From: a virus
Length of the DNA stretch: 64,000 nucleotides
Direction: 5' to 3' (one strand)
Virus record (IMG/VR): IMGVR_UViG_3300020048_003770
Coordinates: 1-64,000 of that record
Part shown: piece after piece, positions 1 to 63,390 of the stretch
Layout of the letters: the number at the start of each line of letters is the position of its first letter
How positions within the stretch are numbered: the first letter of the stretch is position 1
Made by a program: the position numbers and the translations under genes
Notes under the pieces: generated by a model
Told to the model about the DNA's origin: nothing
The model's input: the letters and a program-made list of their open reading frames with translations, nothing else
Databases searched by the model: none

Positions 1-116
1 TCCCTGATGCCCTGCAAGCTTAGATTTCATGTTTTTCATGATTTCAAGCAACTATCAGGGCGGTCTCATAAGCCGCTGCGTAAGCCTAGGGAGTTCGAAT
101 CTCCCTCCCGCCACCA
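1..116 (+). tRNA. 3' part of an atypical tRNA, probably CAT anticodon (Met/Ile2), with a large hairpin insertion; 5' end outside window
   Basis: T arm GGGAG-TTCGAAT-CTCCC, acceptor strand TCCCGCC-A-CCA, arm GCGGT-CTCATA-GCCGC, extra hairpin CCCTGAT...ATCAGGG. Confidence 0.5.
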
Positions 117-126
117 TTTTTCTATA

Positions 127-209: not shown

Positions 210-289
210 ACAGGAGTATAACCTCTCTCTACGAAAGAGTTGAAAGTTTAATTGGATACATGCGGGTTCAAATCCTGTCTCCTGTACCA
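210..289 (+). tRNA. Non-canonical tRNA-like gene, probable anticodon ACG (Arg), anticodon hairpin nested in D arm
   Basis: Acceptor ACAGGAG/CTCCTGT-A-CCA, T arm GCGGG-TTCAAAT-CCTGT, hairpin CTCT-CTACGAA-AGAG precedes D-loop-like TAATTGG. Confidence 0.6.
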
Positions 290-965: not shown

Positions 966-2331
966 GTCAACTACCCAATGACTAAAGATCATTGGGCTTG
1001 TAAATGAGTTTCCTCTTTACATTTGGCGTGTTGACGGGACGCCTGCTCTATAGACTCTAATTGAGCAATAGAGATAGTGTAATCACGCTTTATATTTATT
1101 GATGCATTTATATCTGCATGTTCAATATAACCGCAATTCTTACATTTGTATTGTGATTTATTCCTACTCGCCTTGTTTGTATCTCCACAACTACTGCACT
1201 TTTGAGAAGTATAATGAGGATCTATATATACTACTTGCTTACCAAGTGCGTTAGCTTTGTAAGTTAAAAACTGTTCAAATTGGTAAAAACTCCAATTTGA
1301 TAATAACTTATTTAACTTTTTTCCTTTTTTCTTGCTTCTTATATTTGTTAATTTCTCAAGAACAAATACTTTATGTTGTGGATTATTTGCTATCTGTTTT
1401 GTTATACAGTGATTGACATCCTTCATGAACCTCTTCTCTTTCCCACTAATCTTCTTTAATTTTCTTTTAGCGGATTGAGTGCTTTTTTGTTGGAGTGTCT
1501 TTTTGACGTAAAGGTGTTTTCTTCTCTGATTTCTTATTGATTGGGCAGAGAAAAATTGATTATCTGAAGTAACGGCAATATGATATAATCCTCTGTCAAT
1601 CCCAACAATATCTTTAGAAGATGTTGGGATTTGCGTAGTTACTTCTATTGGATTCTGAAATACTAAATTAATCCAAAATTGATTTTTCTTTTTCTGATAA
1701 GTAAGAGTTGCCATCTTGAAGTTCCAACTCTCAAATATTTTTTTATGTATTTCTGGAACATACAATATCTCTTTATGGCGTTTTGATATTCCAATAATTG
1801 TTACCTGAGTTCCTCTAACAGTGATAGCTCTTTTGTCCAGTCTAAGTCCTGACGTTTCTTTTTTAATTGGTTGTTTACATTTGAACTTTCTTGATTTCAC
1901 TGATTCCAAAGCATTATCTCTGATTGATTGGATTAAAGCCGTTTTTATGTTTGGGAATAGTTCTTGAACCTTGAAATAGTTATCTTTGTGGCATTTACCT
2001 TTATTAAAAGACTTGACTTCGTAAGCCCATTTCGTATAATAGTTGAAAAGTTGAGAAGACTCTTTAAGAAGTTGTAGATATTCTTCTTTATCTAGTTCGT
2101 TCAACTTAATTGAAATTGTTTTCATTTCAGGTTTCATATTAATATAGTTCTAGAATTTTTCTAAATATCCTGCAAGAAAATTAGAAAAAGTCAAAATAGT
2201 TCTTGATTAATGTCAGTTTTTATATATAATATAGGAAATTAAGGATAAATGGATCACTTGCATCACGCCGTTAGCGAAGCATAGCTGAAGCTAACTTCGT
2301 GACACTAAAGATGTCGGGATTTTACGTTCCC
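966..2331 (-). mobile_element. IS200/IS605-family TnpB-only element
   Basis: Right-end hairpin CCCAATG-ACTAAAGAT-CATTGGG next to GTCAAC at 966; similar hairpin GAC-ACTAAAGAT-GTC near 2302 as probable left end; no tnpA; left boundary approximate. Confidence 0.65.
989..2137 (-). CDS. tnpB: TnpB RNA-guided endonuclease
   Basis: RuvC motifs GIDRG, FVLEKL, HADINASINI; Zn ribbon CSSCG...CKNCG. Confidence 0.93.
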   Translation of the reverse strand: MKPEMKTISIKLNELDKEEYLQLLKESSQLFNYYTKWAYEVKSFNKGKCHKDNYFKVQELFPNIKTALIQSIRDNALESVKSRKFKCKQPIKKETSGLRLDKRAITVRGTQVTIIGISKRHKEILYVPEIHKKIFESWNFKMATLTYQKKKNQFWINLVFQNPIEVTTQIPTSSKDIVGIDRGLYHIAVTSDNQFFSAQSIRNQRRKHLYVKKTLQQKSTQSAKRKLKKISGKEKRFMKDVNHCITKQIANNPQHKVFVLEKLTNIRSKKKGKKLNKLLSNWSFYQFEQFLTYKANALGKQVVYIDPHYTSQKCSSCGDTNKASRNKSQYKCKNCGYIEHADINASINIKRDYTISIAQLESIEQASRQHAKCKEETHLQAQ

Positions 2332-19080: not shown

Positions 19081-19172
19081 GGTAATAGTGATGGAATTGG
19101 CTAAACATGCTAGACTGTGAATCTAGTGAGTTATAAAAACTCTTGCGGGTTCGAGCCCCGTCTATTACCCCA
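19081..19172 (+). tRNA. tRNA-His(GTG) with long variable arm
   Basis: G-1, acceptor GTAATAG/CTATTAC, C73, arm CTAGA-CTGTGAA-TCTAG, variable stem GAGT...ACTC. Confidence 0.88.
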
Positions 19173-47701: not shown

Positions 47702-47937
47702 ATTTTAAATTAAGGATATTATGTTTAAATCATATAAGATCTTAAAAGAATGCAAATTAGAAGAGTCTAATTTGATTCAAATGTTGCGTGAAAATAAAGA
47801 AGGATTGACTATAGATAGGATTATGTTAATGGGTTTTGACAAATGGAACTCGCTTAACAAATTATTGGCTATGCAGAAGGTTAAAGGGATTAAACAAAAA
47901 AATGATCCTTTTGTTAAAGAGACTGTTATCGTTTCAT

Positions 47938-48022
47938 GCGGGAGTAACTCACCAATCTTATGAATTGGGCAGTATAATTAGAGTAATGGTGCATGTTGGT
48001 TCAAGTCCAATCTCCCGTACCA
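47938..48022 (+). tRNA. Non-canonical tRNA-Ile(TAT), anticodon hairpin nested in D arm
   Basis: GCGGGAG/CTCCCGT-A-CCA, T arm GTTGG-TTCAAGT-CCAAT, hairpin CCAAT-CTTATGA-ATTGG inside ACTC/GAGT. Confidence 0.7.
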
Positions 48023-54058: not shown

Positions 54059-54192
54059 GGGGAAGTAGCCAAATGGAAAGGCACTATTATTCGGAAATAG
54101 CAAACAGCGATTATTACTTAAATTGTTTAATAGCAATTTCTTATCTAAACGCTTACAAACTTTTGGGGGTTCGATTCCCTCCTTCCCCACCA
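54059..54192 (+). ncRNA. tRNA-like/Y-like RNA 1 (about 70-nt module in variable arm)
   Basis: GGGGAAG/CTTCCCC-A-CCA, D arm, T arm, module AGCG...ACTT-stem-CTTAT...CGCT-TACAAAC. Confidence 0.8.
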
Positions 54193-63270: not shown

Positions 63271-63390
63271 GCCAAAGATGCTTAGGAGTTCGATTCTCCT
63301 TCGTTCCATTTGACGGGACGGATGGTTCACAAAGTGCTACGGTGACACGGTTCGCTACTGTATCGGGTTCGATTCCCGACTTTGGCTCCA
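63271..63390 (+). ncRNA. Expanded tRNA-like RNA with two T-arm-like hairpins
   Basis: GCCAAAG/CTTTGGC-T-CCA; AGGAG-TTCGATT-CTCCT and TCGGG-TTCGATT-CCCGA. Confidence 0.6.

What the first reader, a model, noticed from the sequence alone, without database searches (positions are those of the whole stretch)
210..289. tRNA with rearranged topology (anticodon hairpin nested inside the D arm), copy 1
Acceptor, T arm and CCA are canonical, but the order is 5' D strand (GTAT), anticodon hairpin (loop CT-ACG-AA), D-loop-like TAATTGG, 3' D strand (ATAC), short linker, T arm. The same architecture recurs at 47938-48022 with different sequence, so it looks like a structural class rather than decay. It might evade anticodon nucleases or standard tRNA finders (inference).
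Basis: partly seen in the sequence, partly recalled or inferred. Interest (0 to 1): 0.72.

Follow-up and report, generated by a model that had tools for sequence, protein, structure and literature searches.

The report
Rewired non-cloverleaf phage arginine tRNA
This 80-base phage gene is very probably a working arginine tRNA whose D-arm pieces are joined in a different order from the universal cloverleaf; well over a hundred phage genes share the design, gene finders miss it, and I found it in no paper.

Summary
Window 210-289 has a 7-bp acceptor stem, T arm, encoded CCA and an anticodon hairpin (loop CUACGAA, anticodon ACG). There is no D hairpin. Instead, AAC (220-222) pairs with GUU (246-248), enclosing the anticodon arm. 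The D-loop motif UAAUUGGA lies 3' of that helix, not inside it.

Three capped IMG/VR scans gave 110 genes with this layout. In 84 distinct sequences the enclosing helix is paired in every one, with compensatory changes at two of three pairs. RNAalifold finds it unprompted.

A model built without the window scores it 87.6 bits, against 21.4 or less for canonical tRNAs.

Members carry only Arg or Ile anticodons. The base after GG is A in Arg genes (24/24) and U in Ile genes (59/60), as in the bacterial identity rules. They fill empty anticodon slots in phage tRNA arrays. ARAGORN finds almost none, and Rfam scores this one below threshold.

Charging and decoding are inferred, not shown. This scan has noted the same class before on other phage DNA.

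The parts
210..216 (+). acceptor stem, 5' strand (ACAGGAG)
   Evidence: Pairs with 279-285. All 7 pairs covary in the family.
217..219 (+). U8, A9 and U10. U10 lies opposite U249 as a conserved U.U.
   Evidence: T8 and A9 are invariant and T10 is at least 90% conserved in 84 sequences.
220..222 (+). 5' strand of the enclosing D-like helix (AAC)
   Evidence: Pairs with 246-248. This helix is paired in all 84 sequences, with AU/CG/GC/UA exchanges. RNAalifold predicts it de novo.
223..223 (+). C at the helix junction (like position 26), possibly paired with G242
   Evidence: C:G in 104 of 111 sequences and G:C in 2. Weak evidence.
224..240 (+). anticodon arm: stem 224-228/236-240 (four Watson-Crick pairs plus a conserved U.U at the top), loop 229-235 CUACGAA, anticodon ACG at 231-233
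   Evidence: The stem covaries at 4 of 5 pairs. The U.U is present in 81 of 84 sequences.
241..245 (+). linker UGAAA, a 3'-side bulge between the anticodon stem and the D-like helix
   Evidence: G and AAA are invariant in alignment A1, where the search pattern did not impose them.
246..248 (+). 3' strand of the enclosing D-like helix (GUU)
249..261 (+). relocated D-loop plus a short variable-like connector: U AAUUGG A UACAU. G254 and G255 stand for G18 and G19, and A256 for A20.
   Evidence: Invariant motif. The base after GG is A in 24/24 Arg genes and T in 59/60 Ile genes.
262..278 (+). T arm (GCGGG / TTCAAAT / CCTGT)
   Evidence: Covaries at 4 of 5 pairs.
279..289 (+). acceptor 3' strand (279-285), discriminator A286, encoded CCA 287-289
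   Evidence: The discriminator is A or G in 23 of 24 Arg members.
47938..48022 (+). second gene of the same layout: anticodon UAU, helix CUC/GAG, 12-nt linker, AAUGGU
   Evidence: 37.4 bits with model R2. Relatives L471 and L468.

Best explanation
Window 210-289 encodes a functional elongator tRNA-Arg with anticodon ACG. It would read CGU, CGC and CGA if A34 is deaminated to inosine as in bacterial tRNA-Arg(ACG). It belongs to a conserved class of phage tRNAs with a rewired core. In canonical numbering the order of parts is 1-9, 22-43, a short linker, 10-21, about 46-48, then 49-76. In other words, the 5' D-strand and the D-loop have been moved to the 3' side of the anticodon arm. The D-like helix (220-222 with 246-248, ending in an invariant G-C that matches canonical G10-C25) stacks on the anticodon stem as one long bulged hairpin. 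The relocated loop keeps the partners of the canonical elbow and core: A14 for U8, A15 for U48, G18 and G19 for the T loop, and A21. An L-shape can therefore still form. The three new backbone joins (9 to 22, 45 to 10, 21 to 46) connect residues that already touch in the base triples of a normal tRNA. The host ArgRS would charge it through A256 (the A20 equivalent), C232, G233 and A286. Shown here: the secondary structure, its conservation and covariation, the link between identity bases and anticodon, and the position in tRNA arrays. Inferred: the three-dimensional shape, processing, charging and decoding.
For: All four helices covary. In 84 distinct sequences, 93.9% of cells are paired against 61.9% in shuffles, and the enclosing helix is paired in all of them (11:39 is CG 56, AU 22, GC 4, UA 2; 12:38 is CG 51, UA 29, AU 2, GC 1, UG 1). 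The same holds for 23 Arg(ACG) genes retrieved with a pattern that did not touch the helix. RNAalifold recovers the helix unprompted. Model R2, built without the window, scores it 87.6 bits against 21.4 for the best canonical tRNA. Only Arg (ACG, UCU, UCG, CCU) and Ile (UAU, GAU, one CAU) anticodons occur. The base after GG is A in 24/24 Arg genes and U in 59/60 Ile genes. The discriminator is A in 60/60 Ile genes and A or G in 23/24 Arg genes. These match the bacterial identity sets listed in PMC9976931. The gene lies 6 nt after tRNA-Asp and 13 nt before tRNA-Trp, with CCA encoded. Of 41 family members in loci with 10 or more other tRNAs, only 1 shares its anticodon with a canonical tRNA there. 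In this phage CGU, CGC and CGA make up 30% of Arg codons, and the record holds no other tRNA that reads them. E. coli EF-Tu, ribosome and HisRS accept an engineered tRNA without a D arm (PMC11551756).
Against: There are no expression, processing or charging data. The window's D-like helix is the weakest variant in the family (two A-U pairs and one C-G). Its anticodon stem has only four Watson-Crick pairs. The single-sequence fold is no more stable than shuffled sequence (z = -0.65). The three-dimensional argument rests on textbook tRNA geometry and not on a model. Microbacterium phage Zooman carries a canonical tRNA-Arg(ACG) 70 nt upstream of its rewired one, so the two forms are not always simple substitutes. 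The phage record is only 87% complete, so a canonical tRNA-Arg(ACG) could lie in the missing part.
Confidence: 0.78

Rival explanations
1. It is a tRNA-shaped RNA that is made but does not decode. It could be a decoy or sponge for host tRNA-targeting nucleases or modification enzymes, or a regulatory RNA that only mimics tRNA-Arg.
For: Zooman keeps a canonical tRNA-Arg(ACG) next to the rewired one. Phage tRNAs are known counter-measures to tRNA-cleaving defences (PMC10264068 and PMC11464382, listed).
Against: A decoy has no need for synthetase identity bases that switch with the anticodon. It also has no need to fill otherwise empty anticodon slots, as in 40 of 41 large arrays. U33, purine 37, the 7-nt loop and CCA are all kept.
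Confidence: 0.12
2. It is a tRNA without a D arm whose long 3' connector is unstructured in vivo, giving a Y- or boomerang-shaped molecule like mitochondrial tRNA-Ser(AGY). This is how the Rfam alignment treats it: D arm deleted, long variable loop.
For: The Rfam alignment. The helix has only three pairs. The minimum-free-energy fold of the single sequence does not form it.
Against: The three pairs are kept in 84 of 84 sequences through changes on both sides, which only selection for pairing explains. The conserved GG, A14-like and A21-like bases argue for a normal elbow.
Confidence: 0.07
3. It is a decayed tRNA pseudogene, or a chance resemblance.
For: Standard finders reject it.
Against: 110 genes share the layout on 108 viral contigs. 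All helices covary, and E is about 6e-22 with an independent model.
Confidence: 0.02

Closest known systems
Canonical bacterial and phage tRNA-Arg(ACG), Rfam RF00005 (for example the annotated tRNA-Arg(acg) of Microbacterium phage Zooman, OK040793 89043-89115)
   Same: 7-bp acceptor stem, 5-bp T arm with a TTCRA loop, 7-nt anticodon loop with U33, anticodon ACG and A37, a GG-A motif, an A or G discriminator, CCA, and a place in a tRNA array.
   Different: There is no D hairpin. The strand after U8-A9 pairs with a strand 3' of the anticodon arm, and the D-loop motif follows that strand. It scores 24.9 bits against RF00005 (gathering score 29) and ARAGORN does not call it.
Mitochondrial tRNAs without a D arm, such as mammalian mt-tRNA-Ser(AGY)
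   Same: There is no D hairpin. The anticodon helix is in effect extended. The secondary structure is a three-way junction.
   Different: The mitochondrial forms replace the D arm with a short loop on the 5' side and lose the G18/G19 contact with the T loop. Here the long connector is on the 3' side and keeps the complete D-loop motif. The mitochondrial forms work with co-evolved organellar factors, whereas this one would have to use a bacterial host's machinery.
Engineered 'mini HisT' tRNA without a D arm in E. coli (PMC11551756)
   Same: It shows that bacterial EF-Tu, the ribosome and a synthetase tolerate a tRNA without a D hairpin.
   Different: It is artificial, it removes the D-arm elements instead of moving them, and it needed a host RNase (pnp) mutation to work. 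[quoted passage not shown]
Circularly permuted tRNA genes of the red alga Cyanidioschyzon merolae, and allo-tRNAs with 8/4 or 9/3 acceptor branches (PMC5389517)
   Same: They are natural departures from the standard tRNA gene or fold.
   Different: Permuted genes are processed back to a normal cloverleaf. Here the 5' and 3' ends are in the normal order and the rearrangement is internal and stays in the mature RNA. Allo-tRNAs change helix lengths, not strand order.

Membership tests
Canonical cloverleaf tRNA (Rfam RF00005) | 7-bp acceptor stem, discriminator and 3' CCA | tested here: met
   210-216 pairs with 279-285, then A286 and CCA 287-289. All 7 pairs covary.
Canonical cloverleaf tRNA (Rfam RF00005) | T arm of 5 bp with a T-psi-C type 7-nt loop | tested here: met
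   262-278, loop TTCAAAT. Covariation.
Canonical cloverleaf tRNA (Rfam RF00005) | Anticodon arm with a 7-nt loop, U33 and purine 37 | tested here: met
   Loop CUACGAA at 229-235. The stem has 4 Watson-Crick pairs plus a conserved U.U.
Canonical cloverleaf tRNA (Rfam RF00005) | D hairpin (stem 10-13/22-25 closing the D loop) between position 9 and the anticodon arm | tested here: not met
   Only 5 nt (219-223) lie there. cmscan deletes the 15 D-arm positions of the model.
Canonical cloverleaf tRNA (Rfam RF00005) | Reaches the Rfam gathering score, or is called by ARAGORN | tested here: not met
   24.9 bits against 29. Absent from the ARAGORN lists with or without introns.
Canonical cloverleaf tRNA (Rfam RF00005) | Aminoacylation and decoding on the ribosome | not testable with these tools
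   Only indirect evidence: identity bases track the anticodon, and the genes fill empty anticodon slots.
Rewired-core phage tRNA class (Arg/Ile; unnamed, not in Rfam) | Match to a covariance model built from other members only | tested here: met
   Model R2 (46 sequences, window left out): 87.6 bits, full length 1-77.
Rewired-core phage tRNA class (Arg/Ile; unnamed, not in Rfam) | A 3-bp covarying helix between positions 11-13 and the three bases just 5' of U-AAYUGG, enclosing the anticodon arm | tested here: met
   A220-U248, A221-U247, C222-G246. The family is fully paired with changes on both sides.
Rewired-core phage tRNA class (Arg/Ile; unnamed, not in Rfam) | Conserved linker NGAAA and relocated D-loop motif U-AAYUGG-N-N-ACAU directly before the T stem | tested here: met
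   241-245 is UGAAA and 249-261 is UAAUUGGAUACAU.
Rewired-core phage tRNA class (Arg/Ile; unnamed, not in Rfam) | Arg or Ile anticodon with the matching base after GG (A for Arg, U for Ile) | tested here: met
   Anticodon ACG with A256. In the family this holds for 24/24 Arg and 59/60 Ile genes.
Mitochondrial tRNA without a D arm (tRNA-Ser(AGY) type) | Loss of the D-loop GG and of the contact between D loop and T loop, with a replacement loop on the 5' side | tested here: not met
   GG and the whole D-loop motif are kept at 250-258, and the long connector is on the 3' side.
Circularly permuted tRNA gene | The 3' half is encoded upstream of the 5' half, with acceptor ends internal to the gene | tested here: not met
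   The acceptor 5' strand is at the 5' end and the CCA at the 3' end of the gene.

The most novel reading that the evidence does not exclude
The rewired core is a counter-defence adaptation. It is a second arrangement of the tRNA core with the same overall shape, which host ArgRS or IleRS, EF-Tu and the ribosome still accept. Host tRNA-directed nucleases, modification enzymes or decay pathways that read the D arm or the core connectivity would not recognise it. This would explain why it is found in phage arrays and was not seen in the bacterial chromosomes sampled.
Probability: 0.25. Interest if true: 0.92.

Novelty: new variant of a known kind. Interest (0 to 1): 0.8.

Why it matters
Textbooks and recent papers hold that every tRNA used in bacterial translation is a cloverleaf (PMC11551756 says so in its abstract). 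This gene belongs to a large natural class that keeps all tRNA parts but connects them in another order. It is found in cultured Streptomyces and Microbacterium phages, in crAss-like phages and in many uncultured ones.

If the class is charged and decodes, four things follow:
- The tRNA core tolerates a transposition of strands.
- Phage tRNA counts are too low. Arg and Ile slots that look empty are in fact filled.
- tRNA finders and Rfam need a new model.
- Genetic code engineering gains a natural scaffold that bacterial machinery may accept but that differs in shape-defining connectivity.

It also gives a concrete test of whether phage tRNAs escape host defences through their body and not their anticodon loop.

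Tried and rejected
Rejected: no covariation, one pair unpaired in 13 of 22 sequences, and G216 belongs to the acceptor stem.
- **A normal tRNA with an intron.** Rejected: ARAGORN with introns does not call it, and there is no room for a D arm.
- **Single-sequence thermodynamic folding.** Uninformative (z = -0.65).
- **BLAST of the window flanks against named phages.** No close relative of this phage.
- **Pattern scan for copy 2's exact loop, CTTATGA.** 113 matches, none real. That loop, with G37, is rare in the family. A scan on TAATGGTGCAT gave two real relatives.
- **Prokaryote genomes.** The same pattern gave 120 matches and no real member.
- **Literature.** Five full-text searches found no description of this layout. 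The library holds only open-access papers and bioRxiv.

Full report
**Setting.** The window is the first 64 kb of a 161,288-bp, 34% GC IMG/VR phage record, classed as linear and 87% complete. ARAGORN finds 18 tRNAs, all in this window. The finding lies in a tight array: tRNA-Asp at 127-203, the finding at 210-289, tRNA-Trp at 303-381 and tRNA-Arg(CCU) at 390-461. The spacers are 6 and 13 nt, and CCA is encoded.

**Check of the observation.** The sequence shows these parts:
- a 7-bp acceptor stem, 210-216 with 279-285
- a T arm at 262-278 with loop TTCAAAT
- discriminator A286 and CCA at 287-289
- an anticodon hairpin at 224-240 with loop CUACGAA

Only five bases (219-223) separate U8-A9 from the anticodon stem, so there is no D hairpin. 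ARAGORN does not call the gene, with or without introns. Rfam's tRNA model aligns it end to end at 24.9 bits, below the gathering score of 29. It does so by deleting the D arm and inserting 18 nt in the variable region. Folding the single sequence is uninformative (z = -0.65).

**Relatives.** A pattern built from the anticodon loop, TGGA and the T loop cannot match a class I cloverleaf. Of these, 39 distinct sequences had a proper acceptor stem and T arm and the same layout. An anticodon-independent pattern on the relocated D-loop motif gave 83 more distinct genes. In all I hold 110 genes on 108 viral contigs.

BLAST places members in cultured phages. These include Streptomyces phages of the Samistivirus group such as Mildred21, Microbacterium phages such as Zooman and A3Wally, and crAss-like phages. 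In nearly all records the gene sits in unannotated gaps inside tRNA arrays. One record labels an Ile-type member tRNA-Leu.

The same first pattern in prokaryote genomes gave 120 matches, none of them real. That scan was also capped, so restriction to phages is suggested and not proven.

**Structure.** In 23 Arg(ACG) sequences including the window, positions 11-13 pair with the three bases just 5' of the motif U-AAYUGG in every sequence. Two of the three pairs show changes on both sides.

In 84 distinct sequences aligned without gaps:

| Measure | Result |
|---|---|
| Enclosing helix paired | 100% |
| Pair 11:39 | CG 56, AU 22, GC 4, UA 2 |
| Pair 12:38 | CG 51, UA 29, AU 2, GC 1, UG 1 |
| Whole structure, cells paired | 93.9%, against 61.9% in shuffles and under 50% when partners are slid |

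RNAalifold predicts the same enclosing helix with no input from me. G216 also belongs to the covarying acceptor stem.

In window coordinates the layout is:

| Coordinates | Part |
|---|---|
| 210-216 | acceptor stem, 5' strand |
| 217-218 | U8, A9 |
| 219 | U, opposite U249 |
| 220-222 | AAC, paired with GUU 246-248 |
| 223 | C, possibly paired with G242 (C:G in 104 of 111, G:C in 2) |
| 224-240 | anticodon arm |
| 241-245 | linker UGAAA |
| 246-248 | GUU |
| 249-261 | U AAUUGG A UACAU |
| 262-278 | T arm |
| 279-285 | acceptor stem, 3' strand |
| 286 | discriminator A |
| 287-289 | CCA |

So the nested topology is real, but the D-loop motif lies 3' of the helix and not inside it.

**Membership.** A covariance model built from 46 relatives without the window scores 210-286 at 87.6 bits and 47938-48019 at 37.4 bits. 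The best canonical tRNA of the window reaches 21.4 bits. The second copy has the helix CUC/GAG, a 12-nt linker and AAUGGU. Two relatives with long linkers and compensating stem changes were found. Its loop, CUUAUGA with G37, is unusual in the family. Only these two rewired genes occur in the 161-kb record.

**What it most likely does.**
- *Anticodons.* The family carries only Arg (ACG, UCU, UCG, CCU) and Ile (UAU, GAU, one CAU) anticodons.
- *Identity bases.* The base after GG is A in 24/24 Arg genes and U in 59/60 Ile genes. The discriminator is A in 60/60 Ile genes and A or G in 23/24 Arg genes. These are the bacterial identity determinants listed by Giegé and Eriani: Arg uses A20, C35, U/G36 and A/G73; Ile uses U20 and A73 among others (PMC9976931). 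This link argues that GG-N is the true G18-G19-N20 and that synthetases read these RNAs.
- *Anticodon slots.* ARAGORN overlaps only 4 of the 110 genes. Of 41 members in loci with at least 10 other tRNAs, only one shares its anticodon with a canonical tRNA there. So they fill slots that are otherwise empty.
- *Codon use.* In this phage CGU, CGC and CGA make up 30% of Arg codons, and the record holds no other tRNA for them.

I therefore read 210-289 as a working tRNA-Arg(ACG).

**Three-dimensional reading (inference from established tRNA geometry).** In canonical numbering the order is 1-9, 22-43, linker, 10-21, about 46-48, 49-76. The strand after A9 runs towards the anticodon and takes the place of 22-25. 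The strand before the D-loop motif takes the place of 10-13. The invariant G246-C222 pair then corresponds to the conserved G10-C25.

Several canonical partners are kept. A250 can pair with U8 as A14 does, and A251 with U261 as the 15-48 pair. G254 and G255 can meet the T loop, and A258 stands for A21.

The three new backbone joins (9 to 22, 45 to 10, 21 to 46) link residues that are neighbours in the base triples of yeast tRNA-Phe: 9 with 12-23, 45 with 10-25, 46 with 13-22, and 21 with 8-14. An L-shape is therefore plausible. E. coli EF-Tu, ribosome and HisRS accept an engineered tRNA without a D arm (PMC11551756).

**Why Arg and Ile only.** This is unexplained. A single origin followed by anticodon switching, for example UAU to UCU together with U20 to A20, is a simple possibility. 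I did not test it.

**Why the design exists.** This is also open. The anticodon loop is ordinary, so escape from nucleases that read only the loop is not indicated. Escape from factors that read the D arm is possible and testable. Zooman carries a canonical and a rewired tRNA-Arg(ACG) 70 nt apart, which hints that the two are not fully equivalent.

**Known or new.** Five full-text searches found no description of this layout. A 2024 paper states that all known bacterial tRNAs are cloverleaves. Earlier notes of this same scan describe the same class on other phage DNA. I used them as leads and re-derived the evidence here.

**Verdict.** This is a new architectural variant of a known kind of molecule. 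Its function is supported only by comparative evidence.

Noticed in passing
window 54059-54192: tRNA-like gene of about 130 nt with normal acceptor, D, anticodon and T arms and an insert of about 60 nt after the anticodon arm. Rfam tRNA scores it 46.9 bits. ARAGORN calls it only with introns allowed, as tRNA-Pro(CGG) with a 56-nt intron.
   Followed up: no
window 19082-19172: tRNA-His(GUG) of 91 nt with a hairpin in the variable region (GAGUU/AACUC). This is unusual, because tRNA-His is normally a short-variable-loop tRNA.
   Followed up: no
window 63271-63390: A 120-nt RNA-like element closed by a 7-bp acceptor-type stem and ending in UCCA. It holds two T-arm-like hairpins (GGAGTTCGATTCTCC and TCGGGTTCGATTCCCGA) and an anticodon-like hairpin with loop ATTTGAC.
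   Followed up: no
window 58-117: An anticodon-like hairpin (loop CTCATAA), a T arm and ACCA, with no matching 5' acceptor strand in the 57 nt upstream. Those 57 nt form a long hairpin instead. The contig starts here, so the 5' part may be missing.
   Followed up: no
G000:C1:144386-144489 (outside the window): A 104-nt tRNA-like element with a 7-bp acceptor stem, a T arm, ACCA and an 8-9-bp hairpin in place of the anticodon arm.
   Followed up: no
window 989-2137 (minus strand): A 382-aa ORF matching a PHROG transposase family (phrog_506, E = 8e-49), just downstream of the tRNA array and on the opposite strand to its neighbours.
   Followed up: no
L118 (Microbacterium phage Zooman, OK040793) 1357-1429 and 1501-1576: A canonical tRNA-Arg(acg), which is annotated, and a rewired tRNA-Arg(ACG), which is not, lie 70 nt apart in the same array.
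   Followed up: partly
Streptomyces phage EGole, MK494112 75271-75334 (hit H24): An Ile-type rewired gene is annotated as tRNA-Leu in this record, while the homologous place in about 75 sister phages carries no annotation.
   Followed up: no
window 47721-47963: An 80-aa ORF runs 26 nt into the second rewired tRNA gene (47938-48022). It has no PHROG match.
   Followed up: no
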